NCBI GenBank assembly: GCA_964016885.1
Contig: OZ024743.1
Span: 128,216,001-128,280,000 of the forward strand
DNA: 64,000 bases
Source: Eledone cirrhosa
Taxonomy: Eukaryota
Reading direction: 5' to 3'
This document shows, in pieces, positions 4,350-61,207 of the stretch (the stretch's first letter is position 1; every line of letters begins with the position of its first letter). The notes under the pieces were generated by a model. The model searched no databases. It worked only from the letters and a program-made list of their open reading frames with translations, and was not told where the DNA came from. The translations under genes were made by a program, and so were the position numbers.

Positions 4350-4580
4350 TAATGAATATGGAATACTCAAAACAAGAAGGCCTTGGATAAGTCGAGCCCC
4401 TAGCAGTGGAGACTTCTAGTGCCTTTGGCCCGAGGGCTACCTCACTACTCACCACCATAGGCGCTGAGCGGGATAGATGCAGGTGTGAGTCTCGCGAGGT
4501 GGAATGGCTCTTCAAGGGCATCTCTCTCACCATCCTCTGGGGAAATGCCTTCTCTATTCACTGCTATACCAGACTGTTGA
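4350..4580 (+). mobile_element. 3' remnant of a restriction-like-endonuclease (CRE-type) non-LTR retrotransposon
   Basis: AVETSSAFGPRATSLLTTIG...ESREVEWLFKGISLTILWGNAFSI resembles the AVETxG.WG...FQRLSVAIQRGNA C-terminus. Confidence 0.6.
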
Positions 4581-4632
4581 CTATCTGTAACCAATGACGC
4601 TATATATCAACCCAATTAGTTATTGACACATA

Positions 4633-4809
4633 CGCTAAACAAAAACTGAAAGTAAATATTTTGCATGTCTTGTGTGAAGGAAATGAGTAACTCAATCAGC
4701 ATCTCGCTAAACAAAAACTGAAAGTAAATATTTTGTATAGACATAAGTAACTTTCGTTTCACATATTAAAGGAATTCCAGGACTCTAAAAACATTGGTAA
4801 GTATATAAA
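4633..4809 (+). promoter_or_regulatory. Proximal promoter of cytokine-like gene: TATA box plus IRF-E-like, AP-1-like and kB-like motifs
   Basis: TATATAAA 4802-4809; AAAACTGAAAGT 4642-4653 and 4714-4725; ACTTTCGTTTC 4750-4760 (GAAACGAAAGT on -); TGAGTAACTCA 4684-4694; GGAATTCC 4771-4778. Confidence 0.55.
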
Positions 4810-4878
4810 GTTAAACTGCTTTAGTATTGTCAAATATTTACTGTACTCACAAGGTGTATACACAAAGATACTGAAGAA

Positions 4879-4888
4879 ATGAAGATGA
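4879..4888 (+). CDS. Cytokine-like gene exon 1, coding part (MKM + 1 nt)
   Basis: ATG AAG ATG A|gtaagt is a consensus donor at phase 1, matching exon 2; it lies 70 bp after TATATAAA. Confidence 0.75.
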
Positions 4889-7800
4889 GTAAGTATTATA
4901 TTGGTTTGTGCAATATACCTTGTACAATATACCTTTCGATACACACATATATATATAAACTTTTAGCCATTCGGATATCGGAGATTTGTGTATTTAAATC
5001 ATAAGGAGATTTTGTTGACAGGGCCTAGCTGGAACTCCTTTCTGTTATCTCTGCTTTCACACTTTTCTTTAAAAGCTTTCTTGAGTTTGGAAACATAACG
5101 TTGGTAGTCATGGTAACTAGCGTCACCGTCACCGTCGCCTCTGCCAACAATACAACAATGACACACTCAGAGTTACTTCCCTTAGCTTGTGCCAGCATAC
5201 CAATACGGTGGCTGTGTGTGTGTGTTTCAATAAAGACGCGTGGTTTAGAGGTTAGAGCGTTAGATTCACATCATATGAAAGGGGTTCGATTTTTGCAAAT
5301 ATTCGGCTATTCTAAAATCAAAATTAGTTTCTTGATTGTTTTATAGCAAGAATTTGTTCTTCCCACTTAATGACATAATTCTCCTAGCATACATTTTTGT
5401 AGTGCAGACATGGTAGCATTGGAACTATTGTTCACAGATTTGCGCACATACCTTTAACCCCCCCGTGCCAATCACCCCCTCCCCCATTACGTTTTCAGAA
5501 AAAGAAGGTGTTGAAAACACGAAAAGACATAGGAAAAAATATTTTCTGAATGATCTCCAGCAGATGCTATTCTATAAATTTAAATGGCTGAAATATACTT
5601 ATCTGTAACTCCAAGGGTTCATCTCCCCCTCCTCTACACAGAACTAATGAGTTGTAATAGGTTCAGCCTATATATGTTTTTATATTATTAATTTCTAGTG
5701 GATTGGCAGTATCGGTAGAGGGTTGGACGGCATGCTTTGAAGCATGGAGTTGCGTCCCTTTATGATCTGAGTTCAAATCTCGCCGAGGTTAACTTTGCCT
5801 TTCATCCTTACGGGGTCGATAAAATAAAGTACCAGTAATGTACTGGCTAATTGCTGACCTTGTGCCAAAAGTAGAAACAATTAATTTCTAATATTTATTT
5901 TTCAGCTTATTTTCACTTCTCATGTGCTTCTCTACTTATCTTCCCTACCTAACTGACCATCTCCATTTACTATTACTCAGTCCTTTATTAACTCCATCTC
6001 TCTCCACTAGTCACCAGAGACACACCATACAAAATACTTTTCTAACAAAATCATACAATGATCACACATAAGAATAATATACACTACAACCAAACTGAAA
6101 AGTTTAGTAAGACACCCTGCTATGTGTAGCTCCTGACCAAGATTGAACTCCAGACCAGGATCTCCATCATCTCAAATACCTATCACTAGGCCACCAAGAT
6201 GACTACAATGTAAAGAGAAAAGAAAACTTATTATTTTGAAATGGTGACAAATTTCACCAAGCCACATACACTCTCATTGTCAGATTTCTGTTGTAACTGT
6301 GATGTCTAACAACAGCATTAAACAAACACATTACATGTTCTAATATTATGTTATCTAACAATATATAGTAATAAAATCTAAAGATATCTTAATATACTTT
6401 CTTTCATTTAGATTTGCAATATGCATTGGTCTTATGTTTATCAACATGGATAGCATTGATCCACGGATCACCTATACAATCTACAATACCACCTAAATCA
6501 GCTGATCCAAAAGTTATGAAAGTGACATTGAAAATTGCACAACTTGCTTCTGCTACTGTAAACTATACATTGATGCACTATGTGAGTTCTTGAATTAATT
6601 CTTTATTTCTTCATATATTAATTTATTTCCTATTTATATTATCAATTCATAGGGCAGTAGATAGACAGTATGAGTAGAGCGTCAGACACTATGCTTTGCA
6701 GCATAGAGTTGTGGCCTTTTACGTTCTGAGTTCAAATCACGCTGAGCTTAACTTTGCCTTTCATCCTTTTGTGATCGATAAAATAAATCACCAGTAATGC
6801 ACTGGGGTAATTGCTGGCCTTGTGCCAAAAGTAGAAACAATTATTAAATCATTGTTAGGGTGGTAGATTGGCAGTGTCAGTAGAACGTCAGACAAAATAC
6901 TTTGTGGTAATTAGTTATGACTTCCTATGTTCTGTGTTTAAATCCTACCAAAGTAAACTTTGTCTTTCATCCTCTCAAGGTCAATAAAATAAAGTATGAG
7001 TCAAGTACTGAGATCGATATGAATAACTTTGCTCTCTACTAAGATTTACTGGCCTTGTGCTTATATTAGAAATCATTATTAGGTTATTTCATATCAATAT
7101 GTTATTTTACTGAAGTGTTGTAATATCAAAGTACATCACACTGACACTATAATCAATATCTAAATCATACTTAGGTCTGTAACACTGAATGTTTAAGTTC
7201 ACATAAGAATGAATCTATTGATATCGTATGTCTCATTTTATTAATAGCCAGTGTCAAAATATATGAATATCTATGTGTAAAACTATCTCTATTTCTAAAT
7301 GTGTAAATATCTTTTATAGTGTAAGAATACTCCAATGATATACACTACAAACTGCCATAAATTTATTACCTACTTACTGAAAATGATGGACGTTACATTG
7401 CCCCAGATGTATCTTCATGATTATATCATTAATAATGAAATATCACAGGTTAGTACATTTTATAAAATTATGATGCATTGTTCTTTTTCTGATATTTTAT
7501 ACAATGATATATTTTGACAAATATCAATGTATGCAAAATACAAAACTTCTCAATAATTCTTCATTACAGATGGGTCTGTTCAACATATCTACAACACTTA
7601 GTAAATATATTGTTTTGATTAAAAATCAAATGGAGAGAGAATATAAGGATTTATGTGCTCCTGCCAAACGTATAAAAGTAGCCTGTCATTTTCCTTCTGC
7701 CTGTTCTGAAATCACTAAAACATCAGAAGCTACATTCTATTGTTACTTAAGACAATCTGTAAATTACGTGAATGATCTGAAACTTCTTCTGAATTTACAG

Positions 7801-9344
7801 GTAGGTGTTGTTATTATAATAATATATTTATATTGGATATTCTTTTTTTCTCTTGATTTCATTTCATATAGATTATAATATTACATTATAATTGCATTTA
7901 TATATCCAAAATTAAGGTCAGTTTATTCTTGGCAAGCCTGTTCTGCTAGGGAATGGATCACAGATGGTGGATAGTGATGTGGCAACCCAATATGGGAGCT
8001 AATTGCAATTTCAGTGGGCTCATAATAAACAACCCTTGACAAAACAGTGGTTAGCTAGTTGGGCAGATGGAACAATAGGTGACACTGTTGGCTCTCAGGA
8101 AAAGTCTCACAACCCCATGCTATAGTTATGATGAGATGAGTAAAGGCCTCTTCTAAAAAAGCCTAGTCTTTGCAGATCTGAGAATTTGTTTACTGGTGCA
8201 AATAATAGAACAGAAAAGCAGCAGTATTGTTTGGTTGCATAAAAAGAATCATACTTAATTGTCCTTCCAACAAGGTGACCATGGTTGCATACAGATCTTA
8301 AATAGAAGAACCCATTTGAAAAATATATTGCAGCCTCTATCCAATACCAGAAAAACTAGCAACATGCCTGGGAACTATCACAGGATGGATGCACAAAGGT
8401 TGCGTACTATAGCACTACAAAGAGGGTTCAGAAGGGAGCAAACATTAACAACTGGAATATCACAACCCTGACGCATAGGGAACAGGAACTAGTGGAAAAG
8501 GCCAAATATAGTTTGGGGTTTCCTTTACTAGGTCTGTGACTCTAGTACTGTTGATTTGGATGAAAACCCACAAAACAGTTATGTCTAGATTGACACACAG
8601 CATAAATTGTGAAGTGCTGGCTGATGAGGGGTCACGACTAGGTATGAAGGTACTATAGCACCAAAATTTTGAGAACATCCTGAACAAATTGAAAATATTA
8701 AAGTGGAGTGAAGACAGTTCAGTTTGACATTTTCTGCTTCGGCTGTTAAATGATATGGGCAAACGCAGTTTGGTGTGGTGATGGAGGACAGAAGTATCCC
8801 TTGAATTAATCAAAAAGTTAAAGATATCATCCATGTGAAGAAAGAGGCTTGCAGAACCTGTTTTGGAAATAAGTCTTCCATCTTGTGCTTGCTGTGCAAG
8901 CAGACATTAAAGGTAGCCAAGATTAAGACATTGTAGGATTTTACAAGAATGTTATTGCAGTATTTGTTCTGGTCTTTTGAGTTCAAATCCCATCATGTTC
9001 CACTTTGCCTTTCTTCCATCCAAGGTTGATACAATTTTCCCCTTCCCTAAAATTACTTCAGTCTAAAGTAGAAATCATTATAAAATGGTAACTATGGCAA
9101 GAACATGTATATCAATGTATATATATTTTGTCATTTGTACAAATTATTAATATTACAATTACAATCTAGTTTGTTTTTCTATTTTTTTTAAATTCAGATT
9201 TCTTCAAAATACCAAGACAGTGTACAAGTAGATAATAATTTCTTGGTATCACATCATACTCAAAGAACTCAGCTTCGATGGTTTACCATGACTACGCTAT
9301 ATACTCTACAGGAACATATCAGCCAGATTCAAAAGATATTATAG
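4879..9344 (+). CDS. Putative secreted long-chain four-helix cytokine (IL-6/G-CSF family-like), 228 aa, join(4879..4888,6412..6581,7320..7448,7570..7800,9198..9344)
   Basis: All four introns are GT..AG with pyrimidine tracts, and the exons splice into one open frame of 687 nt: MKMNLQYALVLCLSTWIALIHG/SPIQSTIPPKSADPKVMKVTLKIAQLASATVNYTLMHY|CKNTPMIYTTNCHKFITYLLKMMDVTLPQMYLHDYIINNEISQ|MGLFNISTTLSKYIVLIKNQMEREYKDLCAPAKRIKVACHFPSACSEITKTSEATFYCYLRQSVNYVNDLKLLLNLQ|ISSKYQDSVQVDNNFLVSHHTQRTQLRWFTMTTLYTLQEHISQIQKIL*. It has a signal peptide, an upstream TATA box and a downstream AATAAA. Gene model confidence is about 0.85; the family assignment is less certain. Confidence 0.75.
5698..5882 (+). mobile_element. 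tRNA-derived SINE; further copies about 6652-6842, 6858-7080, 41085-41240 (+) and 30955-31145, 39975-40145, 53165-53285, 58143-58330, 63735-63980 (-)
   Basis: A/B-box-like head (tggcagtatcgg...gagttcaaatc), shared core tttgcctttcatcct...gtcgataaaataaagtaccag and tail gtgccaaaagtagaaacaatt. Confidence 0.85.
6412..6581 (+). CDS. Cytokine-like gene exon 2 (signal peptide + helix A)
   Basis: ctttcatttag| ... CAC TAT|gtgagt; 170 nt open; hydrophobic signal ending IHG-SP. Confidence 0.85.
7320..7448 (+). CDS. Cytokine-like gene exon 3 (Cys pair + AB loop, VTLPQM)
   Basis: cttttatag|TGT ... TCA CAG|gttagt; 129 nt, phase 0-0. Confidence 0.8.
7570..7800 (+). CDS. Cytokine-like gene exon 4 (helices B and C)
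   Basis: ttcattacag|ATG ... TTA CAG|gtaggt; 231 nt, phase 0-0; lies inside ORF 7504..7878. Confidence 0.85.
9198..9344 (+). CDS. Cytokine-like gene exon 5 (helix D, stop)
   Basis: ttttaaattcag|ATT ... TTA TAG; amphipathic C-terminal helix. Confidence 0.8.
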   Translation: MSSKYQDSVQVDNNFLVSHHTQRTQLRWFTMTTLYTLQEHISQIQKIL

Positions 9345-12809: not shown

Positions 12810-14560
12810 AATAATAATAATGAAATTATTGTGTAAAGTGCTCAGGTGCACTACAACTCGTCAATATAGTACATAGAATAATACACAAATGCCAGGGAAG
12901 TACATGTTTGTATGTGTTAGCTGTAGTGTTGGCGGATCTCGGGAAGCATGGAGGCCTTAAAGGATGCAGTGTCTCGACAGCTAACAACTGATGCAGGTAG
13001 TTTGTTCCATGCTTCAGCAACTCTGAGCGTGAAAAAATGTTTCCGAAAATCATGGGAACTGTGCTGTTTTCTTACTTTGTGGGCATGTCCACGTGTGTTA
13101 GACACATGGAAATCGAAAAGGCACTCAGGGTTGTTGTTGGCAACATGGTTAACAATTTTGTGGGTGTTTACCAAGTCAGTTGCCAGGCGTCGGAGCTTCA
13201 ATGAATCCATGCCCAGGGAAGCAAGGCGCTCAGAGTATGGTAGATGCCTGATGGAGGGTATTCGCTTGGTTGCACGTCTCTGAACAGTTTCCAGGCGGTC
13301 AATGTCCTGAGCAAGATAGGGGTTCCAGACTGGTGATGCAAATTCTAAGTGTGGTTGCACCATAGCTGTATACAGCCTTAAATAGATATCTGGAGAGCAG
13401 CTGACAAAGGTCTTGCTGAGTGATGCTAAGACACCCTCGGCCCTCTTGACAATTTTAGAGACGTGCCTCGTCCAACGCAAATCGCTGCTGACCGTAATGC
13501 CCAGGTCACGTTCACAGGAAGACTTCTTGATATTAGTGCTGTGGAGGGAGTATGTGGACGCTGGGTTTTTACTCCCAAAATGCATGGTGGTGCACTTGTC
13601 CACAGCTAGCTTGAGTTGCCAGTCTGAGATCCACTGTTGCATTGTGTCCAGGTCAGACTGCAAGCAAGATCTATAGTGTTCAGGATCTGTCCTTTTTATC
13701 TCAAGGTACAGCTTGATGTCGTCTGCGTACTTTAGTACTGTGGCATTCCTTAAGTTGGCATCTATGTCATTAATATATGCCACAAACAAAAGGGGGCCAA
13801 GAACAGATCCCTGAGGTACACCAGATGACATCTCATATGGTGAGGAATGCTGTCCCAGAACCGTGACTACCTCTCTTCGACTGAGAATGAAGGACTTCAA
13901 CCAGTTAAAAAGATCATCCTTCACACCCATTGCAGAGAGTTTTGCCATAAGCCTTTTGTGCGGCACAGAATTGAAGGCCTTCGCAAAGTCAAGGTAAACA
14001 ACATCCACCCATGAGCCGCCATCAGTGATCCGGGTGATGTCCTCAAGAAACTCTATAAGTTGATCACAGCAGCTGGAGTTGGGGATAAATCCAAATTGCG
14101 AGGGCCGGATAAGACTGTGAGAGCTCCAGAAGTTCCAAAGTGTTTCTCTGACACAGGATTCCATCAGTTTGGCGATGCAACTAGTAAGACTGACTGGACG
14201 ATAGTTCACAGGTGATGTGCGGTCACCCTTTTTGAACAGAGGAATTACACTGGCAGTTTTCCACTGTTCTGGAGTAGCACTGTTGTTCAGACAGAATTGG
14301 AAGAAGCGTGATAACTGGTGTAGAAGGAAGTACCCACCACGTTTAAGAAACAGGTACGTAACACCATCAAGACCAGGAGAGGCATGGTTGCGTTTATTTT
14401 TTAGGTGACGTCGCAGCATTGCAGGTGTAAATTCCATGGTTGTAATAGAGTCCGGTGTCATAGGTGGTGGAGATGGTACACTCTGGTCTTCAATGGTGAA
14501 AATGCCTGCATAGCATTCAGCAATGAGCTCTGCGCATTCCTTGGGGTCGTCAGTAACCTG
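12810..14560 (-). mobile_element. 5'-truncated LINE (CR1/L2-like) with uninterrupted RT frame
   Basis: ORF 12917..14665 has SPGLDG, YRPVSLT, YLDFAKAF, GVPQGSVLGP, YADD, ERDLG, LETVQRRATK and FFTLRV..WNKLP; (TTA)n tail. The first ~35 aa of the ORF are flanking DNA. Confidence 0.92.
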
Positions 14561-15059
14561 GCTTGTGTGGGTATAAACACACACATATATAAATATGACA
14601 TAAAATCTCATCAATAACATCAAGTCTCCATGAAACCACACAGTTTTGTAATATACTGGGAACACCAGTGAAATAATTGTTGCTGGTGGTCTTAGGAAGA
14701 GCTAGTAATAGCAACAAAATCTCCCTCAAACCATAGATACATTTAATGTGTCAAAAAATGAGAGAAATAGCAAAGAAATATACCGTTAATCACACATTCT
14801 TGTCTTGTTCAAATCTACTTAAAATTTATATATTAATTTCTAGACTGTAATCTACAAACTTTAATAATTATCTCTATAAGACCCCCACCCTCAAAAATAT
14901 GAATTATAATGCAAGTTATGAACAAAATTAATGATGTCAATATTAGAATAATACAAAGAGATCCCAAATCTCCCTTTTGTTTATTTTAATGTTGAACCAA
15001 AAAAAAAAAAAATTATTCCAAAATTTGCTCCTATACATGGGGCAAATCCTATTCGCATC

Positions 15060-36200: not shown

Positions 36201-39200
36201 CAATTGACAGATAAATTAGGGTTATGTTAGAAGAAAGGAAATAAGTTAACGAGCTCGCTCTACTATATACTTTGTTTTGAAATTTAGAAAATACATGTTA
36301 AAATGAATAAAAGAAATTGAAAAAATATCCATCCTTTCAACACTTCATTAAAATGTGGTACTGTTAAATACTTTTAAACAACGGAAAACAATATCATTTG
36401 AAGAACTAATACGGGTTGGTTATTTTAGAACATGTTCTGAATTAAGATAGAACAACAACAACAATAACCATCACTGCCGCCACCAACATAGTGAACATTT
36501 ACCACATGATTAATATTCTCTTTAAAAACAACCCTCAGAAAACTGGAATATAGTCACTTGACTTACACAAAATAGCTGCTGGATCTTTCTCCACAAATTC
36601 GCTATTGCCTTTAACTCTTTTGATACAAACACCATGCTCCATCTAAGCCATGCTAGGGTGGAAAATGGATGTTAAACGATGATGATGATGATGATATATA
36701 TATGGTGATGGTTGTGTTGTTGATGATGATGGTGGCGGTGGTTGTGTTGTTGTTGATGATGGAGGTGGTTGTGTTGTTGTTGATGATGGAGGTGGTTGTG
36801 TTGTTGTTGATGATGGTGATGGTTGTGTTGTTGATGATGATGGTGGCAGTGGTTGTGTTGTTGTTGATGATGGTGATGGTTGTGTTGTTGTTGATGATGG
36901 TGATGGTTGTGTTGTTGTTGATGATGGTGGCAGTGGTTGTGTTGTTGTTGATGATGGTGATGGTTGTGTTGTTGTTGATGATGGTGGCGGTGGTTGTGTT
37001 GTTGTTGATGATGGTGGCGGTGGTTGTGTTGTTGTTGATGGTGGCGGTGGTTGTGTTGTTGTTGATGGTGGCGGTGGTTGTGTTGTTGATGATGGTGGCG
37101 GTGGTTGTGTTGTTGATGATGGTGGCGGTGGTTGTGTTGTTGATGATGGTGGCGGTGGTTGTGTTGTTGATGATGGTGGCGGTGGTTGTGTTGTTGTTGA
37201 TGATGGTGATGGTTGTTGATAATGGTGATGGTTGTGTTGTTGTTGATGATGGTGGCAGTGGTTGTGTTGTTGTTGATGATGGTGGCGGTGGTTGTGTTGT
37301 TGTTGATGGTGGCGGTGGTTGTGTTGTTGATGATGGTGGCGGTGGTTGTGTTGTTGATGATGGTGGCGGTGGTTGTGTTGTTGTTGATGATGGCGGTGGT
37401 TGTGTTGTTGATGATGGTGGCGGTGGTTGTGTTGTTGTTGATGATGGTGATGGTTGTTGATAATGGTGATGGTTGTGTTGTTGTTGATGATGGTGGTGGT
37501 GGTGGTTGTGTTGTTGTTGATGATGGTGGCGGTGGTTGTGTTGTTGTTGATGATGGTGATGGTTGTGTTGTTGTTGATGATCGTAGCGGTGGTTGTGTTC
37601 TTGTTGATGATGGTGATGGTTGTGTTGTTGTTGATGATGGTGGTGGTGGTGGTTGTGTTGTTGTTGATGATGGTGATGGTTGTGTTGTTGATGATGATGG
37701 TGGCGGTGGTTGTGTTGTTGTTGCCATGAGTAACTAACTGCCATTCAGTTTATCTCCTTAACAGATTGCAGTTATATTTCAATGACATAACATCATATAA
37801 CATACTTGATGTTTCTTATTAAACACTTTGAACCCCTATTTTAATGTGCCATACACTCACAGTAGAACAGCAGATAGCACTAAAGACCATACACAGCTGT
37901 TATCGTTTCTAGATCATCATCAAACGTTTAGGTATTTAATTAGATTGAAAAGTGGTGTATATAATAGTGTTGAAAGAGTAAAGTAAGTGGTGGAGATTTA
38001 GGGAAAATGTTACTTTTATTGGTTACGTAGATACGTCTTTTTTTACAAAATTAAAACTATAAATGTGTATGCATGTGCATGTGGATATATCTGTGTGTGT
38101 GTGATTATTTATTTATGCATACACTGCATACACACATATATATATATATACAGGATGAGTCATAAGTAACCGGGCAACCCAACATTTATATTCCAAATGA
38201 TAATATTTACAAAAATTCTGGTCGTATAGTACGAATTTATAAATACATCAAACAAAAGTTGTTAAAATGATATAAGAAAATGCACAAAACATGGCTGATC
38301 ACACACAAATAAGTGGATGCTCAAAAAGTTATCTGTGAACCTTGCAATAAACATGCATTGATTGCTCTGTTATTTATGACTCACCCTGTATATTTTTTTT
38401 AATTTTATACAGGGCTGGGAAGGAAATAGCTATGACACAAGAATTATATAGTAGAATATTTAGAGAAGCAATGGACTGTGAGCAAGGTCAAAGAGAGGTG
38501 CTTAGGATGGCAAGGCAATTAGCAAGAGAAAGCTGTGATGTGACAGAGATGAAATGCTTGAAGGATGAAGTTGTAGAGTTGAATGAACTTAATTAAGGAA
38601 AGGTGGAAGAAATATATGGAGAAATTGTTAAATCTGGAGAATGGACGGGATGCCAACATAGCAGGCAATCAGCTCTTGGGCCAGCAGAATAGATAGCTGT
38701 TTAAGTTGAGGGAGCAATGAGAAAGATGAAGAATGGAAGGACAAGAGTGGTAGGAGATATGTTAAAGGCAGCGGGAAGTTGGGGCGTGAAAAGGATGAGA
38801 GAGATCTGTCAGTTGGTGGTGAAACAAGACCATATCCCAGTTGGTTGGAAGTTGAGTACTCTCATCCTTCTGTACAAGGGAAAAGGCATGTTTTTTTACT
38901 GTGGCTTGTATAGAGCAATTAAGGTATTGGAAAGAGTGATAGAGAAGAAGATAAGAAAAAAATGTAAAGGTTGATGAAATGTAGTTTGGATTTGTGCCAG
39001 GAAAAGGAATGACTGATGTATTTTTTATTGAGAAGAAGTGACATGAGGAAGAATTTGTTTTGGGGGTTTGTTGATCTGGAGAAATCTTTTGATAGAGTTT
39101 TACATGAAGTAATAACATAGTCATTGGGAGAGTTAGAAATGGAGGAATGGTTAGTTATGGTAGTGATGACAATGTAGGAGAAAGCAGAGTATATATATAC

Positions 39201-40764: not shown

Positions 40765-43700
40765 CGATAACAATGATAATGATTGTTACCAGCTTTCCTA
40801 AACTATCATAACCACATATCTCACAAGCTTTCATAGAAACTACATATCATCATCATAATTTTACATGTTTTTCATGCTGGCATGGGTTGGACAGGTCAAC
40901 ATGGTCCGAGGTTAGACAGGGCAAGGAACCACGTCTTGCTAATTTGCAGGATTTCTACAGCTAGAAGCCCTTCCCAACACCAAACATTTTATAGAGTGTA
41001 CTGGATGCATTTTATCATGGCATCACCATGACCCGTATCAACCATTTTATTTTCTGTTATGTATTTGACTTTCATAGTAACTATCTGCCATGCTTTGAAG
41101 CATAGAGTTACGTCCCTTTATGATCTGAGTTCAAATCCCGCCGAGGTTAATTTTGCCTTTCATCCTTACGGGGTTGATAAAATAAAGTACCAGTAATACA
41201 CTGGGTAATTGCTGGCTTTGTGCCAAAAGTAGAAACAATTATTTGTAACTATCTGATGATGTCATACCTGATGTTGCTGAAATGGGGATAATAAAATAAT
41301 TATGTAATTACACAAACCAGTCTTAACATTTATTTGTATGTATCATCAACCCTACTTATACTTTTCCATGCTGGTATGAGTTTGTCAGGATGTTTTGAGA
41401 CAATGTTTTACAGCGAGATACCATTCTTAGTATCAACGTTTTTTATATGGCTCTTATAACTCACAGGGATATACTGTACCTTTTCTAAAAACTGATACAT
41501 GCATACATACACATACAAATCATATGCACATGCACACATGTAACTCCAAACATCCACATCCACACATACATTAACATCCATACCTGCACACACATGCATG
41601 CATGCATGGATGCAGACATGCATACATATCTACCTAGTAGGTGTTGTTTAAATTCCAATGAGAGAGTCTTATGTCTATGTTAGAAACCGACTCTCTCTCT
41701 ATTGGGAACAAATTTATAAAATTATAAAACCAGAACATACACACATATATATATAATATTGGGTATGAATCAAAGTTGTAGCCACCATATAGCAGGTACT
41801 TATGCATATATATATATACACCTAAAGTCTGTAATTGGTACAAAATGAAGGTCACTACACTTACCTGTGGGTAACATATTTTGAAGTGACTCTCTATGTT
41901 CTCCTCTAGAAGTGGATCAACACCCATCAATGGTTTAATCACAGACACTCCAGGCAGTTCGTCATGTTCTAATAATGGATTTGTTTGTTGGTACAAACAC
42001 AACCGGCTGAGAAATAAAGAAAAAGAAAGTAAATATAACAAACACATACCTTTTCATTGATGTAACCCTTTTAATACTAACCTGCCTGAAACCACCCATG
42101 TTTCTTTGATAAAACACTCCATTTTAAAGTGCTTATATCTAAATTGAAACCATCATTATTAGTAAGAACTTTGTTATGTTCTTAAGACCAACTTAATGAA
42201 ATTCTTGATTATTTTCAAAATTAATTGAGACAAATTTAAAGTATTTCATGAGAAATGTGGTCACAAAAGGGGTTAAACAAGATAACATAAACACATGCAT
42301 TATCAATTGTGTTTAAACAAGACTATATAACAAACATATACTTTAACAATAGTGTTTAAAGAAGGCTATATAAGAATGGTGTTGAAACTACACTATATAA
42401 CAAACATAAATCCTATCAATCATATTTAAACTAGACTATATAACAAACCTTATCAATCATATTTAAAGAAGACTTTACAACATTAGTAATGGTATTTAAC
42501 CATTTTGTTACCATATTTCTAATTAAAAACACTCTATAATTTTCCAGTAATTTTGAAACTAATAAAAAATTTAAGGGATTTAGTAATATAATTTCCTCAT
42601 CATTAAGCTGGTGTTTGAAACATGTTATTTTTTTCATGAAATTATGATTAAAAGATTTTAGATAAATCGGGGAGAAGTGTGTACTTAATGATGACGGCGT
42701 ACTTGCCATCACCGACGCTGATAAGAAGGTAGCTTGGAAGTGTCACTATGAAAGGCTACTAAATGAGGAGAATAAATGGGAGAAAGACAGTCTCCCCCAC
42801 ATCAACCCAATAGAGGGACCAGCAGTGTTAGTCGAGGGTAGTATAATAAGTAAGGCAATCAAAGATATGAAGACGGGTAAGGCGGCTGGGCCTTCGGAAA
42901 TAGTTGCCGAGATGCTGAAGGCATCTGGTATGGTGGGACACACCATGGTCACCCGGATAGTTAACCAAGTCGTACAGAATGGGGTTGTTCCGAAGGACTG
43001 GCATAGCAGCATCATCGTTAACTGTTATAAGGGTAAACGAGATGCCCTAGATAGGAGTAACTATAGAGGCATTAAATTAATCGACCAGGTCATGAAGGTC
43101 ACAGAAAAAGTAATAGCGCAACTAATCAGAGAGAGAATTGATCTAGATGAAATGCAGTTCGGGTTTATGTCAGGCAAAAGTACCACAGACGCTCTTTTCA
43201 TTGTACGACAACTACAGGAGCAGTACCTAGCTAAAAGTAAACCCCTATACTTAGCTTTTGTCGACTTGGAGAAAGCCTTCGACAGAGTCCCCCGTTCCAT
43301 TATCTGGTAGGCTCTACAGGCTATAACAGAGGAGTTCAAGACCGGTTGCCCATGGGAACTCCTATACGCAGATGACCTAACACTCATAGCTGAATCAATG
43401 GCCGAGCTAGAGAAGAAATTCCAAACATGGAAGCACGGCCTAGAATCAAAGGCCTTAAAATTAACCTGGCTAAGACTAAAGTTCTTGTTTGTAAGAAAGA
43501 AAATAAGGCGGCGGTCCCTTCCGGGAAATGGCCATGCTCAGTGTGTAGGAAAGGTGTAGGTAGAAACTCCATTTTGTGTCCCAAATGCAAAGTATGGGTG
43601 CATAAAAGATGTAGTGGGATCACAGGTAAGCTAACTAAGAACATAGATTTCACATGTGGCCGGTGCTCTGGTGCAATAAGTAGCAGCAAGTGCCCACAAA

Positions 43701-46700
43701 ATACTGGCTCTTTCAACTGCGCAGAGGGTTCTATAGAAATAGTGGACAGCTTCCGTTACCTGGGTGACAAAATCAGCAGTGGGGGAGGGTGCTCTGAAAG
43801 TACAGTAGCTAGAGTCAGAACTGGATGGAAAAAGTTCAGAGAGCTTATACCACTATTAGCCGCTAAAGGGTTCTCCCTAAAAATGAAAGGCAGGTTGTAT
43901 GATGCCTGCATACGAACAGCAATGTTGCATGGCAGTGAGACCTGGGCATTGTGTGCAGAGGATATACGCAGACTAGAGAGGAACGAAGCTTGCATGCTCC
44001 GCTGGATGTGTAATAGTAATATACGTGAACGGCAAAGCATAAACGAACTAAGGAAAAAATTAGAAATAAGAGGGATCAGATGTTGTTTACTCAAGAGAAG
44101 GCTACGTTGGTATGGTCACGTGATGCGCATGAAAGACGATAGCTGTATAACAAAGTGCAGGGCAATAAAGATAGACGGTAGCCACGGAATAGGCAGACCC
44201 AGAAAAACCTGGGACGAGCTGATAAATTCCGACCTCACACACTTACACCTCTCCAAGACAATGTCACTGGACCGAGACCTTTGGCGGTACTCAGTAATAG
44301 AGAAGACCCGCCTTACTTAAATACAAAGTAAAACCTACTACAGTCAGTAGGCATCTCTAACAAAATACACCCCCTCCCACCACCCCCACCCCATTCACAC
44401 CGCCCCTTTCAATGTAAAGTTATGTTGGTGCCACAACATCCAGGCCGAAACAAATGAGATCGTGTAGGTGTCATGACAAAAAAAACACACAGTTCACGCT
44501 GTAATGTGGCCGTGTAGGCAACACGGTAAAAACCTCCCAGCCCCACACTGTAAATGTGGTTGGTGTTAGGAAGGGCATCCAGCTGTAGAAAACCCGCCAG
44601 ATAGTCCTATGCGAGCAAGATAATCACTCTTGCCTCAAGTGGGAAAACCCCCGTCCAAACCCATGCAAGCGTGGAACACAGACGTTAAACGTTGATGATG
44701 ATGATGATGATGATGATGATAGGATGGACCTCTGTGGTTTCAACAATAAATGCTCCAACTGATCCATCAATGGAACAGCCTCTGCACCTGAAATTAACAC
44801 GGAGGTGACATAGCATTCCATAGTATACCCTTACCGTAATTCTCAGAGAGGTTCAGTGTGACATAGTGGGTGACAACGCTGGTCATTTGAATTACATGTA
44901 CAGCCCATCTAATGGGCTTCAAAGTAGTTTCCAGCAACCCACTTTTACTCACAAGGTGTGATGACATGCAGTGGAATGGAACCTGGGACCAAATGATTGG
45001 AAAGCAAACTCCATAACAATTCGGCCATACTGTATTCACAGATAAATATATAGACTTTAAAATAAACAGTTTGGTATAGTAGAATAAGGGGTAGTTTTAA
45101 TCAGTTTGGTATCAAAAGGTTTAAATATATATATTTAAACACAACTGCTGCAGCTTTCTTTTTTGTGTGCCCCAGTCAAAAGAGGAAAGGCAGTGCCCAT
45201 GACCCTTTTTAGGGCCTTTGGAAAGTGACAGGAGGAAGGCAGAAAGATATCTTCAGATCTGGCATAAATGCTTGCAACAGAAAGGACACCTATGGACCAG
45301 GTAATGGTTCTGGTTTCCTGCACTCAAATCCGAACCAAGTAGACATTGCCTTTTATACTTTTGGAGTTGATAAAGTAAAGAATTAGAACAGTACAGTGAA
45401 TTGATAGAATTGTTAGTACAACGGATAAGATGCCTTGGGGTATTTGTTCTGGCTCTTTGCATTCTAAGTTCAAATTTCATATATTACCTACTTCCATGTT
45501 AGACTTTATCATGGCACCAGCACTGCCATTTTACAAAGTGCATTGGGTGCATTTTATCATGGTACCACCGAAGCATCTTTATGGCATGTACTGGATGCAT
45601 TTTATAATGGTGCAGCACTACCACTTTACAGACAGTACTGGTACATTTTATCACATCAGCAGTACCACATTAAAGAGTGTACTGGTGTATTTTATCAGGG
45701 TACCACCTATTATCTCTTTACAGATTGTGCTCTGTGCATCTTACTGTACAGAATGTACCAGGTGTATTTTTTTGTGGCATCTGCACTACCAGTTTATAGA
45801 ACATACTGCACCAGTACTACCACTCTACACAGTATAGTGAGTACATTTTATCATTGTACTAGCACTGCCATCTTACTGAATGTCCTGGTTGCATTTTATC
45901 ATGGCATCAGCACTACCACTTTACATAGCGTACTGGGTACATTTTACCATGACAAGAACACTGTCACTTTACATAGCATACTGGGTACCTTTTACCGTGA
46001 CAACAACACTACCACTTTACATAGCGTACTGGGTACATTTTACCATGACAAGAACACTGCCATTTTACATAGCATACTGGGTACCTTTTACCGTGACAAC
46101 AACACTACCACTTTACATTGCATACTGGGTACATTTTACTGTGACAACACTACCACTTTACATAGCGTACTGGGTACATTTTACTGTGACAACAACACTA
46201 CCACTTTACATAGCGTACTGGGTACATTTTACTGTGACAACAACACTACCACTTTACATAGCGTACTGGGTACATTTTACTCTGACAACAACACTACCAC
46301 TTTACATAGCGTACTGGGTACATTTTACTGTGACAACAACACTACCACTTTACATAGCGTACTGGGTACATTTTACTGTGACAACAGCACTACCACTTTA
46401 CATAGCGTACTGGGTACATTTTACTGTGACAACAACACTACCACTTTACATAGCGTACTGGGTACATTTTACCGTGACAACAGCACTACAACTTTACATA
46501 GCATACTGGGAACATATTACTGTGACATCAGCACTACGACTTTACATAGTGTACTGGGTACATTTGACTGTGACACCAACACTACCACTTTACATAGCGT
46601 ACTGGGTACATTTTACTGTGACAACAACACTACCACTTTACATAGCGTACTGGGTACATTTGACTGTGACACCAACATTACCACTTTACATAGCGTACTG

Positions 46701-47420
46701 GGTACATTTTACTGTGACAACAACACTACCACTTTACATAGCGTACTGGGTACATTTTACCATGACACCAACACTACCACTTTACATAGCATACTGGGTA
46801 CATTTTACCTTGACACCAATACTACCACTTTACATAGCGTACTGGGTACATTTTACCATGACACCAACACTACCACTTTACATAGCATACTGGGTACATT
46901 TTACCATGACCCAGAACTACAACTTTACATAGCGTACTGGGTACATTTTACCATGACCCAGAACTACAACTTTACATAGCGTACTGGGTACATTTTACCA
47001 TCACCCAGAACTACAACTTTACATAGCATACTGGGTACATTTTACCGTGACAACAGAACTACCACTTTACATAGCGTACTGGGTACATTTTAACGTGACA
47101 ACAGAACTACAACTTTACATAGCGTACTGGGTACATTTTACCGTGACAACAGCACTACGACTTTACATAGCATACTGGGTACATTTTACCGTGACAACAG
47201 AACTACAACTTTACATAGCGTACTGGGTACATTTTACCGTGACAACAGCACTATGACTTTAAAAAGTGTCCTAGCAAAATTCTATTGCAAACACAACAGA
47301 AAACACCATAACTTACCCACTGAACAATGAGACCATCAGGGCAAATGCAGTGAAGAAATAGACTAGTAAACCAGTTAATCCCAAAAAGAACAAAACATGT
47401 GCATACACCTGCTCCTCCAT
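27102..47420 (-). CDS. UGCG: Ceramide glucosyltransferase (GT21/UGCG)-like, 405 aa, complement(join(27102..27293,28705..28897,30632..30718,31381..31559,32272..32387,32957..33058,33854..33956,41865..42006,47317..47420))
   Basis: Nine GT-AG exons splice in frame (1218 nt). The protein has an N-terminal TM segment, LPGVSVIKPLMGVDP, LFCVQDDQDPA, VGLVHQMP, VYFG..PRY, GMS, LAEDY, RMVRW, EPLTEC and DYLQL, colinear with human UGCG as recalled. It may be a divergent paralogue. Confidence 0.92.
27800..28190 (-). mobile_element. Degenerate RTE fragment in UGCG-like intron 8
   Basis: QGSVL, LQAITEEFKT and SGKWPFSVCRKGLGRNS. Confidence 0.75.
28705..28897 (-). CDS. UGCG: UGCG-like coding exon 8
   Basis: WLRLRFSM...EPLTEC...IDYLQLKNIQ|gtgagc. 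Confidence 0.95.
29150..30590 (-). mobile_element. Degenerate RTE-type RT remnant in UGCG-like intron 7
   Basis: PIFKKGD...NYRGISLL, FCFV..KKAYD.VP and GVGLH.G; many frameshifts. Confidence 0.8.
30632..30718 (-). CDS. UGCG: UGCG-like coding exon 7
   Basis: GYSLVISAFPAQQNVGLLSMANYKDRMVR. Confidence 0.93.
31381..31559 (-). CDS. UGCG: UGCG-like coding exon 6
   Basis: VYFGCVVPRY...GMSYLLKK...YLAEDYYLGRAIRDR. Confidence 0.95.
32272..32387 (-). CDS. UGCG: UGCG-like coding exon 5
   Basis: ANSDILYDMVGKMLKPNVGLVHQMPFTTDQSGFAAAVEK. Confidence 0.93.
32957..33058 (-). CDS. UGCG: UGCG-like coding exon 4
   Basis: GNNGIVNPLVKNMSPAYKAAKYGYIWVSTSRIK. Confidence 0.92.
33854..33956 (-). CDS. UGCG: UGCG-like coding exon 3
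   Basis: IELLFCVQDDQDPAIALVRRLQTKYPKVDSHLFIG. Confidence 0.95.
34786..36072 (+). mobile_element. Full-length degenerate mariner transposon
   Basis: TIRs gagttgcactcaagtagttttgaga / tctcaaaacatcttgagtgtacctc; WVP.GQ.VNKEYY, HQDNAP and HPPYSSDLA; disrupted by stops and frameshifts. Confidence 0.88.
36678..37725. repeat. Compound GAT/GGT/GTT minisatellite, unit about 27-33 bp
   Basis: gatgatggtggcggtggttgtgttgttgtt repeated about 35 times; the source of the spurious long ORFs here. Confidence 0.95.
38149..38390. mobile_element. Tc1/mariner-type MITE
   Basis: TA-flanked TIRs caggatgagtcataagtaac / gttatttatgactcaccctg. Confidence 0.75.
38410..39190 (+). mobile_element. Degenerate RTE RT fragment
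   Basis: KMKNG, MLKAAG, YKGKG, YRAIK and FGFVPGK. Confidence 0.7.
41865..42006 (-). CDS. UGCG: UGCG-like coding exon 2
   Basis: RLCLY...LPGVSVIKPLMGVDP...CYPQ|gtaagt. Confidence 0.95.
42660..44720 (+). mobile_element. RTE-clade LINE, 5'-truncated and internally deleted, in UGCG-like intron 1
   Basis: ORFs 42825..43310 and 43427..44320 contain FVDLEKAFDRVP, a Cys/His finger and RLRWYGHV; LYADDL lies between them; 3' UTR ends in (GAT)n. Confidence 0.93.
45500..47255. repeat. 48-bp minisatellite (about 28 conserved units from ~45900, degenerate units before)
   Basis: Unit actaccactttacatagcgtactgggtacattttactgtgacaacaac. Confidence 0.95.
47317..47420 (-). CDS. UGCG: UGCG-like coding exon 1 (MEEQVYAHVLFFLGLTGLLVYFFTAFALMVSLFSG)
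   Basis: An acceptor ttcttcag 9 nt before the ATG implies an upstream non-coding exon; donor GG|gtaagt; encodes a TM helix. Confidence 0.85.
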
Positions 47421-59402: not shown

Positions 59403-60873
59403 CATCATCATCATCATCATCATCATCAACGTTTAACGTCCGTGTTCCACGCTTGCATGGGTTTGGACGGGGGTAGTCCCACTTGAGGCAAGAGTGATTG
59501 TCTTGCTCGCATAGGACTGTCTGGCAGGTTTTCTACAGTTGGATGCCCTTCCTAACACCAACCACATTTACAGTGTGGGTCTGGGAGGTTTTTACCGTGT
59601 TGCCTACACGGCCACATTACAGCGTGGACTGTGTGTTTTTTTTGTTGTGACACCTACACGATCTCATTTGTTTCGGCCTGGATGGCGCGGCACCAACATA
59701 ACTTTACATAGAACGGGGTGGTGTGGATGGGGTGGGGGTGGTGGTGGTGGGACGGGGTGTATTTTGTTAGAGATGCCTACTGGCTGGAGTAGGTTTTACT
59801 ATATATTTAGGTAAGGCGGGTCTTCTCTGTTACTGAGTACCGCCAAAGGTCTCGGTCCAGTGACATTGTCTTGGAGAGGTGTAAGTGTGTGATGTCGGAG
59901 TTTATCAGCTCGTCCCAGGTTTTTCTAGGTCTGCCTATTCCGTGACTACCGTCTATCTTTATTGCCCTGCACTTTGTTATACAGCTATCGACTTTCATGC
60001 GCATCACGTGTCCATACCAACGTAGCCTTCTCTCGAGTAAACAACATCTGATCCCTCTTATCTCTAATTTTTTCCTTAGTTCGTTTATGCTTTGCCGTTC
60101 ACGTATATTACTGTTACACATCCAGCGGAGCATGCAAGCTTCGTTCCTCTCTAGTCTGCGTATATCCTCTGCACACAATGCCCAGGTCTCACTGCCATGC
60201 AGCATTGCTGTTCGTATGCAGGCATCGTACAACCTGCCTTTCATTTTTAGGGAGAACCCTTTAGCAGCTAATAGTGGTATAAGCTCTCTGAACTTTTTCC
60301 AACCAGTTCTGACTCGAGCTACAGTACTTTCAGAGCACCCTCCCCCACTGCTGATTTTATCGCCCAGGTAACGGAAGCTGTCCACTATTTCTATAGAACC
60401 CTCTGCGCAATTGAAAGAGCTAGTATTTTGTGGGCACTTGCTGCTACTTATTGCACCAGAACACCGGCCACATGTAAAATCTATGTTCTTAGTTAGCTTA
60501 CCTGTGATCCCACTACATCTTTTATGCACCCATACTTTGCATTTAGGACATAAAATGGAGTTTCTACCTACGCCTTTCCTACACACCGAGCACGACCATT
60601 TCCCAGAAGGGACCGCCGCCTTGTTTTCTTTCCTACAAACTAGAACTTTGGTCTTAGCCAGGTTAATTTTAAGTCCTTTTGACTCTAGGCCGTGCTTCCA
60701 TGTTTGGAATTTCTTCTCTAGCTCGGCCATTGATTCCGCTATGAGTGTCAGGTCGTCTGCGTATAGGAGTTCCCATGGGCAGCCTGTCTTGAACTCCTCT
60801 GTTATAGCCTGAAGGGCAATAATAAATAGTAGGGGGCTGAGAACAGAGCCCTGATGGACGCCAACTTTTACGC
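59403..60873 (-). mobile_element. Young 5'-truncated RTE LINE, same family as 42660-44720
   Basis: Open frame [13 protein letters not shown]...LYADDL...EKTRLT; same 3' UTR and (GAT)n tail. Confidence 0.95.
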
Positions 60874-60924
<51 letters not shown>

Positions 60925-61207
60925 CACATACATATCCACATACATACATGTACACATACATATATATATGTGTGTGTGTGTTTATATGTATGTGTATATG
61001 TATATATATTTATCTAAAAGCGAGGATGTGTGTGTGTCTGTGTACAACTTTGGACACCTAAGGCTTTTACAATTCCCAACCAAATTTGACCAAATTTTCT
61101 GTGCACGTTGCACCTGTCACTAAGATGGTCAAATCGACCCCCGTTGAGCAATAAAAAATTCATAGCAAAATTATCGATGGCAAAATAATTTTTTCTAAAG
61201 TGCATGA

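What the first reader, a model, noticed from the sequence alone, without database searches (positions are those of the whole stretch)
4633..4809. Enhanceosome-like immune promoter in front of the cytokine candidate
Seen within 170 bp upstream of the TATA box: two AAAACTGAAAGT, one GAAACGAAAGT (minus strand), TGAGTAACTCA and the palindrome GGAATTCC about 25 bp before TATA. Known: IRF elements have the core AANNGAAA(G/C)(T/C), AP-1 binds TGA(G/C)T(C/A)A and Rel sites centre on GGAATTCC-like cores. IFN-beta and IL-6 promoters combine these factors. Inference: IRF/NF-kB-driven induction, possibly an interferon-like antiviral role. Short motifs arise by chance in AT-rich DNA, so the clustering is the only real signal.
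Basis: partly seen in the sequence, partly recalled or inferred. Interest (0 to 1): 0.72.

Follow-up and report, generated by a model that had tools for sequence, protein, structure and literature searches.

The report
Octopus IL-6-like cytokine family promoter
These DNA motifs lie just upstream of an unannotated five-exon gene, one of about 39 copies in a likely octopus genome, whose relatives are predicted to fold like interleukin-6 and -11, so this is likely an immune-switched promoter for a kind of signalling protein that sequence searches have missed in molluscs, not an interferon enhanceosome.

Summary
All motifs are present at the stated places, and two or more IRF-type sites in 169 bp occurred in 0 of 828 background tiles. 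But the two identical IRF sites are one local duplication, the AP-1 site misses the strict consensus and is absent from paralogues, and the sites do not abut as in the IFN-beta enhanceosome.

The promoter belongs to an intact five-exon gene (intron phases 1-0-0-0) for a 228-residue secreted protein. The genome holds 39 full exon-4 copies; homologues were found only in Octopus and Argonauta, all 'uncharacterized'. Models of two homologues match IL-11, IL-6, LIF and CLCF1 (Z 14-16) better than interferons (Z about 10).

Paralogous promoters keep the TATA context, a kappaB-like box about 33 bp upstream (three clades) and the IRF site (26 of 30 copies of one clade; absent in two other clades). Conservation support is modest (about 3% of control 10-mers survive). 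Expression, factor binding and receptor are untested.

Verdict: likely a Rel/IRF-inducible promoter of an octopod IL-6-type cytokine family, a candidate ligand for the molluscan IL6R/Domeless-JAK-STAT pathway.

The parts
4633..4666 (+). first copy of a 34-bp direct repeat (homology between halves extends to about 4692)
4642..4653 (+). IRF-like site 1 (AANNGAAAGT; 158 bp before TATA); its first 11 bases also occur in the human IFN-beta enhancer probe
4684..4694 (+). AP-1-like palindrome; loose match only, seen only in the four C4 copies; likely not functional AP-1
4705..4738 (+). second copy of the 34-bp repeat
4714..4725 (+). IRF-like site 2 (86 bp before TATA); a 14-nt block around it is identical in the C6 paralogue clade
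4750..4760 (-). reverse IRF-like site with one-base spacer; specific to the C4 copies, at the place where other clades have a weak kappaB-like box
4769..4778 (+). Rel/kappaB-like box (2 mismatches to GGGRNWYYCC); same position in three paralogue clades; GG deleted in one of four C4 copies
4795..4810 (+). TATA box (4802) with a flank conserved across three clades
4830..4834 (+). predicted initiator, start about 4832 (TATA + 30); not mapped experimentally
4879..4888 (+). coding exon 1 (ATG, 10 nt, phase-1 GT donor)
6412..6581 (+). exon 2: signal peptide and predicted helix A
7320..7448 (+). exon 3: predicted long AB loop
7570..7800 (+). exon 4: predicted helices B and C, four conserved cysteines
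9198..9344 (+). exon 5: predicted CD loop and helix D, stop codon

Best explanation
The region is the proximal promoter of an intact five-exon gene for a secreted protein predicted to be an IL-6/IL-11-type long-chain helical cytokine, and it is likely switched on in infection or injury by a Rel/NF-kB-type factor next to the TATA box together with IRF at the upstream sites. Shown: the motifs, the local duplication, the open five-exon frame, the gene family, and partial conservation of the IRF and Rel boxes in paralogues. Predicted: the fold (from two homologues) and the start site. Inferred: an ancestral layout of IRF (about -118), kappaB-like (about -68), kappaB-like (about -33), TATA; in the C4 lineage a 60-72 bp duplication doubled the IRF site and a third IRF-like site arose, tilting this clade towards IRF input. 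Inferred further: the protein would signal through a gp130/Domeless-like receptor to JAK-STAT. Step odds: real promoter of a real gene 0.95; long-chain class I fold 0.9; IRF sites used 0.6; Rel box used 0.5; AP-1 site used 0.15.
For: Cluster of IRF-pattern sites above background, 0 of 828 tiles. The only promoter 10-mers shared exactly with the C6 clade are those at the IRF site, against 30 of 1146 10-mers in eight other non-coding segments, at 13 of 35 fourfold sites changed. IRF site in 26 of 30 C6-cluster promoters, the -33 box in 30 of 30; a second IRF-pattern site on the minus strand 590-850 bp upstream in 29 of those 30, in DNA found only in that cluster. The -33 box is 1 mismatch from GGGRNWYYCC in two paralogues (1.1% of 7627 background tiles) with mismatches at different positions, so the majority reading is GGGAATTTCC, a listed NF-kB site (PMC2193297). 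IRF-domain genes at 3 or more loci, Rel-domain genes at 2. Independent database models in four octopod species align over the whole spliced product at 39-47% identity. Two AlphaFold models (pLDDT 77, 77.5) give four long helices; best matches IL-11 Z 15.2 and 15.8, IL-6 14.5 and 14.9, LIF, CLCF1, CNTF; ranks 1-27 are all cytokines. ESM Atlas features point to IL6/IL11/IL12/GCSF/LIF/hormone clusters.
Against: No expression, binding or start-site data. The window's own Rel box has 2 mismatches, met by 9% of background tiles, and one of four C4 copies lost its GG. The 1-2 changes per lineage in that box are about what neutral drift would give. The IRF site is absent from the C6:12.4 Mb pair and from L031 within 1500 bp and is changed in its GAAA core in 3, and deleted in 1, of 30 C6 copies. 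Exact matches of 11-16 nt also occur in introns and the 3' UTR between the same clades, so 14 nt is not exceptional by length. No ATTTA in the first 256 nt after the stop. Only paralogues, no orthologous promoters, were compared. The window's own protein was not folded; no Pfam or PDB sequence match supports the fold, and no Foldseek row reached E 0.001.
Confidence: 0.58

Rival explanations
1. The gene and TATA promoter are real, but the upstream motifs are largely neutral: inherited A-rich sequence multiplied by a local duplication, with control exerted elsewhere.
For: Two of three IRF sites are one duplication; similar-length matches survive in introns and 3' UTR; sites are lost in some copies and clades; a 63-bp 87% copy of 4606-4668 lies on C1 between repeats with no gene match.
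Against: The one block kept in an otherwise poorly alignable promoter is the motif named beforehand; IRF-pattern sites recur at a second place in the C6 clade; the 28-mer is not a dispersed repeat: 5 matches genome-wide with up to 3 mismatches.
Confidence: 0.2
2. The sites work, but through other factors with overlapping specificity (Blimp-1/PRDM1 at GAAAGT, NFAT5 at TGGAAA, TEAD/Scalloped at ATTCC; motifs recalled), making this a wound, stress or regeneration cytokine like Drosophila Upd3 rather than a pathogen-sensing one.
For: Drosophila upd3 is driven by Scalloped, Mad and D-Fos (PMC5690694, abstract); the window's box reads GAATTCCAGG, near a recalled TEAD motif; IL-6-type cytokines also act in repair (established knowledge).
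Against: Paralogues have ATTTCC or ATTTAC rather than ATTCC at this place, and their variants centre on a kappaB consensus.
Confidence: 0.17
3. A true IFN-beta-type enhanceosome drives an interferon homologue with an antiviral role.
For: AAAACTGAAAG occurs in the human and AACTGAAAGT in the mouse IFN-beta enhancer probes (PMC10308904); IFN structures match the models at Z about 10; large tandem arrays recall IFN clusters.
Against: Sites do not abut and vary among paralogues; intron phases are 1-0-0-0, not 0-0-0-0; gp130-family cytokines score about 5 Z units higher; a 2026 screen found no IFN fold outside chordates (10.64898/2026.05.30.728932).
Confidence: 0.05

Closest known systems
Vertebrate IL-6-family (gp130) cytokines: IL-11, IL-6, LIF, CLCF1, CNTF
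   Same: Secreted, about 200 mature residues, four long helices with long AB and CD loops; top structural matches, Z 14-16, rmsd 2.5-4.0 over 137-166 residues. Five exons with a phase-1 first intron in the signal peptide as in IL-6 (IL-6 gene structure recalled). A kappaB site close to the start: IL-6 has GGGATTTTCC at -73 (PMC2193297).
   Different: 9-17% identity, no Pfam IL6 match, six conserved mature cysteines, about 39 copies in tandem arrays; receptor and signalling unknown; no C/EBP site was examined.
IFN-beta enhanceosome
   Same: Shares 10-11-base IRF-site words, and a Rel-like box is nearest the TATA box.
   Different: IFN-beta packs tandem GAAA cores and a full kappaB site end to end in one 57-bp probe; here single cores lie at -158, -86 and -52, the Rel box at -31 is imperfect, and spacing changes among paralogues.
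Drosophila Unpaired (Upd1-3) / Domeless
   Same: Invertebrate secreted ligand for a gp130-like receptor and JAK-STAT, induced by infection (PMC7378365 passages; PMC5690694 abstract).
   Different: No sequence link was found or tested directly; upd3 control is by Scalloped, Mad and Fos; insects lack IRF genes (recalled).
Oyster CgIFNLP, and an oyster IL-12p35-like protein
   Same: Molluscan cytokine-like proteins; CgIFNLP is induced by poly(I:C) through cGAS-STING-TBK1-IRF (PMC8218723 passages). The p35-like report is recalled only (not held); if right, a long-chain class I cytokine has already been described in a bivalve.
   Different: CgIFNLP is about 15 kDa; no bivalve protein was among the 13 homologues found; relationship untested.

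Membership tests
IFN-beta-type enhanceosome | Contiguous, overlapping AP-1, tandem IRF and kappaB sites within about 55 bp | tested here: not met
   Sites spread over 135 bp with gaps of 10-30 bp against the IFN-beta probe
IFN-beta-type enhanceosome | Rigid conservation of sequence and spacing | tested here: not met
   IRF-to-TATA distance -86/-158 against -118/-120 in paralogues; sites gained and lost; orthologues not available
IRF/NF-kB-inducible cytokine promoter | IRF half-site AANNGAAA(G/C)(T/C) near the start | tested here: met
IRF/NF-kB-inducible cytokine promoter | Full ISRE GAAANNGAAA | tested here: not met
   0 matches; one with a one-base spacer; sites 1 and 2 have A for the first G
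IRF/NF-kB-inducible cytokine promoter | kappaB site GGGRNWYYCC | tested here: inconclusive
   2 mismatches here, 1-2 in paralogues at the same place, majority reading fits
IRF/NF-kB-inducible cytokine promoter | AP-1 site TGA(G/C)TCA | tested here: not met
   Strict pattern absent; loose pattern in 59 of 828 tiles; not at this place in paralogues
IRF/NF-kB-inducible cytokine promoter | Induction by immune stimuli that depends on the sites | not testable with these tools
   No expression data were obtained
Long-chain class I helical cytokine | N-terminal signal peptide, no other membrane segment | tested here: met
   Hydropathy peak 2.4 at residues 10-20, at most 1.2 later; hydropathy only, no signal-peptide predictor
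Long-chain class I helical cytokine | Four long helices, up-up-down-down, long AB and CD loops | tested here: met
   Models of homologues P0003 and P0007 (47% and 45% identical to the window's product); Z 15.2 and 15.8 to IL-11
Long-chain class I helical cytokine | Signals through a class I (WSXWS) receptor and JAK-STAT | not testable with these tools
   Receptor not located; two family searches were blank and uninformative
IL-6 family (gp130 users) | Site III tryptophan at the start of helix D (Trp157 in IL-6; PMC7378365) | tested here: inconclusive
   Trp208 here and Trp in 5 of 6 own-genome exons aligned but in only 5 of 8 database homologues; end offsets suggest about one turn further into the helix
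IL-6 family (gp130 users) | Pfam IL6/IL11/LIF sequence profile | tested here: not met
   No such family at E up to 1 for 7 full-length homologues or 10 exon peptides
Type I interferon | Five exons with phases 0-0-0-0 | tested here: not met
   Phases 1-0-0-0; criterion from 10.64898/2026.05.30.728932
Type I interferon | Five-helix class II fold | tested here: not met
   Predicted homologue models have four long helices and no long helix in the CD loop; IFNs Z 9-10.5 against 14-16 for gp130 cytokines; predicted, not solved

The most novel reading that the evidence does not exclude
Octopods have a tandemly expanded family (about 39 copies here) of IL-6/IL-11-fold cytokines that are the missing ligands of the molluscan IL6R/Domeless-JAK-STAT pathway, and the C4 clade has been rewired by a short promoter duplication into an IRF-driven, dsRNA-inducible antiviral signal: interferon-like logic built on a class I cytokine.
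Probability: 0.25. Interest if true: 0.85.

Novelty: new member of a known kind. Interest (0 to 1): 0.6.

Why it matters
A 2026 survey found IL6R, JAK and STAT in molluscs but no IL-6-type ligand, using BLAST at 30% identity or more (PMC13203501); these proteins match IL-6-family structures at 9-17% identity and would be missed that way. The family gives named, expressible candidates (for example O. sinensis LOC118763923, O. bimaculoides LOC106876457) and a compact promoter with natural variants (sites present, mutated, deleted) for testing whether IRF/NF-kB control of a helical cytokine predates the protostome-deuterostome split or arose twice. The promoter by itself is an ordinary kind of element; its value is as a pointer to the gene's role.

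Tried and rejected
Transposon origin of the IRF block: rejected; the 22-mer and the 28-mer (3 mismatches) occur only in the four C4 copies and once on C1; the tool warns that DNA searches skip very common words. Four-exon gene model from my first pass: replaced after paralogues showed exon 3. Sequence searches of single exons or alignments against Pfam, PDB sequences and the Atlas gave nothing. Viral fold library: nothing at E 0.001. Receptor (PF09240) and JAK (PF17887) searches of the genome were blank and show no absence. The deep profile search never ran (queue full on all 10 tries), so the range outside octopods rests on two word-based searches and is open. No RNA data were obtained, so expression, splicing and start site are untested by reads. 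The promoter and exon 1 of the C6:10.5 Mb copy were not identified with confidence; the TATA box of L031 was assigned by eye. Four look-ups of earlier findings returned nothing. Literature: six gene or protein ids of the homologues are in no held paper's main text; searches for a molluscan long-chain or IL-6-family cytokine found none; subscription journals and supplements were not seen, and expression tables in supplements could name these genes.

Full report
Observation. Every motif is at the stated place: AAAACTGAAAGT at 4642 and 4714, the reverse IRF-like 11-mer at 4750, TGAGTAACTCA at 4684, GGAATTCC at 4771 and TATATAAAG at 4802. They are one event. With the duplicate removed, two IRF-pattern matches remain; two or more were seen in 0 of 828 background tiles and 8 of 5000 shuffles. 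The loose AP-1 pattern is common (59 of 828) and the strict one is absent. GGAATTCC occurs in 4 of 828 tiles, but against the full kappaB consensus the box has 2 mismatches, which 695 of 7627 background 25-mers reach. The background came from the rest of the window and 15 or 20 fetched loci, much of it repeat-rich, and the patterns were picked with the sequence in view.

The gene. An ATG at 4879 starts a five-exon frame (4879-4888, 6412-6581, 7320-7448, 7570-7800, 9198-9344) with GT-AG introns of phases 1, 0, 0, 0, giving 228 residues with a hydrophobic N-terminus. A TCA lies 30 bases after the TATA box, so the start is predicted at 4832. Exon 4 has 44 matches in the genome: 4 on C4 in a roughly 20-kb tandem array, 31 at C6:26.45-26.85 Mb, 3 at C6:12.4 Mb, 1 at C6:10.5 Mb and 5 fragments on C19. 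All four C4 copies are open. Database homologues (13, 10) all come from Octopus vulgaris, O. sinensis, O. bimaculoides and Argonauta hians and are named uncharacterized or hypothetical; the full-length ones align over the whole spliced product at 39-47% identity, which independently supports the exon model and suggests that the window is from an octopod.

What the protein is. No sequence profile recognises it. AlphaFold models of two homologues, P0003 and P0007 (best pLDDT 77.0 and 77.5; the other four models of each run were lower, down to 46 and 53), show four long helices with long first and third loops. Against 48,161 solved chains the best matches are IL-11 (Z 15.2, rmsd 2.5, 153 aligned; Z 15.8, rmsd 2.8, 156 aligned), IL-6, LIF, CLCF1 and CNTF, all 14-16; ranks 1-27 are cytokines in both searches, type I interferons score 9-10.5 and the first unrelated bundle 7.9. 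The tool warns that helical bundles can reach about 13 by common arrangement. Foldseek lists mostly prolactin, G-CSF, LIF, IL-27 and IL-6 but none at E 0.001. The ESM Atlas places P0010 with IL6, IL11, IL12, GCSF, LIF and hormone clusters, and with an unnamed Mollusca cluster (114 members, 11% IL6) and an Arthropoda cluster. Interferons are described as five helices and phases 0-0-0-0, with none found outside chordates (10.64898/2026.05.30.728932, passages; PMC4929537, passages). So the protein is predicted to be a long-chain class I cytokine of the IL-6/IL-11 type, not an interferon. The window's own product was not folded.

Footprinting with paralogues. Orthologous promoters were out of reach, so I used paralogues, which differ from the window at 13 of 35 (C6 cluster) and 9 of 28 (C6:12.4 Mb) fourfold sites. 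The TATA flank is kept in three clades. Of 31 C6-cluster copies, 30 had a promoter; the other is truncated. AACTGAAAGT stands at -118 or -120 in 26 of 30, has a G-to-T change in 3 and is deleted in 1; a GG..TTTCC box stands about 33 bp before TATA in 30 of 30. These copies are near-identical, so they count as about one independent comparison. The only promoter 10-mers shared exactly with that clade are at the IRF site, whereas 30 of 1146 overlapping 10-mers survive in eight other non-coding segments: about 0.03 for a motif named beforehand. Against this, introns and the 3' UTR hold exact matches of 11-16 nt too. The -33 box reads AAGGAATTCC (window), GGGTATTTCC, CGGTATTTCC and GGGAATTTAC in other copies; the majority reading GGGAATTTCC is a listed NF-kB site, and mammalian IL-6 has its kappaB site at -73 (PMC2193297, table passage). 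A second weak box lies near -68 in the C6 clades, where the window has the reverse IRF-like site. The C6:12.4 Mb pair and L031 have no IRF-pattern site within 1500 bp, one C4 copy has lost the GG of the Rel box, and the AP-1-like palindrome is confined to C4. The C6 cluster also has a minus-strand IRF-pattern site 590-850 bp upstream in 29 of 30 copies and a strict kappaB match near it in 7 of 30, in DNA confined to that cluster. The genome has IRF-domain matches on C1, C7, C1709 and C1323 and Rel-domain genes on C2 and C3.

How it most likely works. Inferred: pattern-recognition or damage signalling activates Rel, which binds next to the TATA box, and IRF, which binds single half-sites upstream; the secreted cytokine would act on a gp130/Domeless-like receptor and JAK-STAT. 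The C4 lineage likely doubled its IRF site by a short duplication and gained a third. This is a flexible cluster, not an enhanceosome: IFN-beta packs tandem GAAA cores and a full kappaB site end to end (PMC10308904, probe table), although it shares 10-11-base words with these sites. IRF control of a molluscan cytokine-like protein has precedent in oyster CgIFNLP (PMC8218723, passages). Rivals are neutral motifs (0.2), other factors in a wound or stress role as for upd3 (PMC5690694, abstract; 0.17) and a true interferon enhanceosome (0.05).

Novelty. An IRF/kappaB cytokine promoter is a known kind. The gene family is unannotated and its ids are in no held main text. A 2026 BLAST survey reports IL6R, JAK and STAT in molluscs without an IL-6-type ligand (PMC13203501, abstract and passages); the Aplysia immunome lists MIF, TNF and IL-17 and never mentions IL-6 or gp130 (PMC9334734, passages). 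I recall a report of an oyster IL-12p35-like protein but could not read it, and the Atlas cluster shows that some molluscan proteins already carry the IL6 profile, so a molluscan class I cytokine is probably not unprecedented. Site III and receptor features are from PMC7378365 (passages). I rate it a new member of a known kind, interest 0.6, carried mainly by the gene rather than the motifs.

Noticed in passing
G000:C1:349205594-349205654 (L015, L052:5595-5655): A 63-bp, 87% identical copy of window 4606-4668, including the first IRF-like site, sits between two high-copy repeats with no cytokine exon match on C1; origin unexplained (captured fragment or relic of a lost paralogue).
   Followed up: partly
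C4 copies L016, L017, L018: Coding differences from the window's copy are nearly all amino-acid-changing (7 of 8, 5 of 6, 5 of 6; shared among copies, so not independent), a hint of positive selection or relaxed constraint.
   Followed up: no
L018 (G000:C4:128.20 Mb), matching window 4767-4772: A 6-bp deletion removes the GG of the Rel-like box in one of four otherwise near-identical copies: a natural mutant.
   Followed up: partly
G000:C19:9923668-9924857 (L033): Five tandem copies, about 270 bp apart, of the 5' half of exon 4; no other exons in the 30 kb fetched around it.
   Followed up: partly
C6 cluster, e.g. L021:4081-4300: A distal block with a minus-strand IRF-pattern site (29 of 30 copies) and a strict kappaB match (7 of 30): a candidate upstream enhancer.
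   Followed up: partly
L022 (G000:C6:26817164): A truncated copy in which the distal block lies directly before exon 4; promoter and exons 1-3 are missing.
   Followed up: partly
L021:4945-5100: A short interspersed repeat, like those in the window's introns, is inserted between the TATA box and exon 1 of this paralogue (seen by eye).
   Followed up: no
window 4391-4559: A dispersed repeat fragment (82-85% matches in L019 and L032) just upstream of the promoter carries a near-kappaB GGGAAATGCC at 4540.
   Followed up: no
window 12920-14701 (-), 42666-44317 (+), 59810-61009 (-): Reverse-transcriptase remnants of LINE-type elements, two with a PHD-finger match.
   Followed up: partly
window 36650-37750 and 45468-46976: Long simple or minisatellite repeats that give spurious open frames.
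   Followed up: no
ESM Atlas result: Unnamed clusters of about 230-residue proteins from Mollusca (114 members, 11% IL6) and Arthropoda (56 members) resemble this family by features: possibly a wider set of protostome long-chain cytokines.
   Followed up: no
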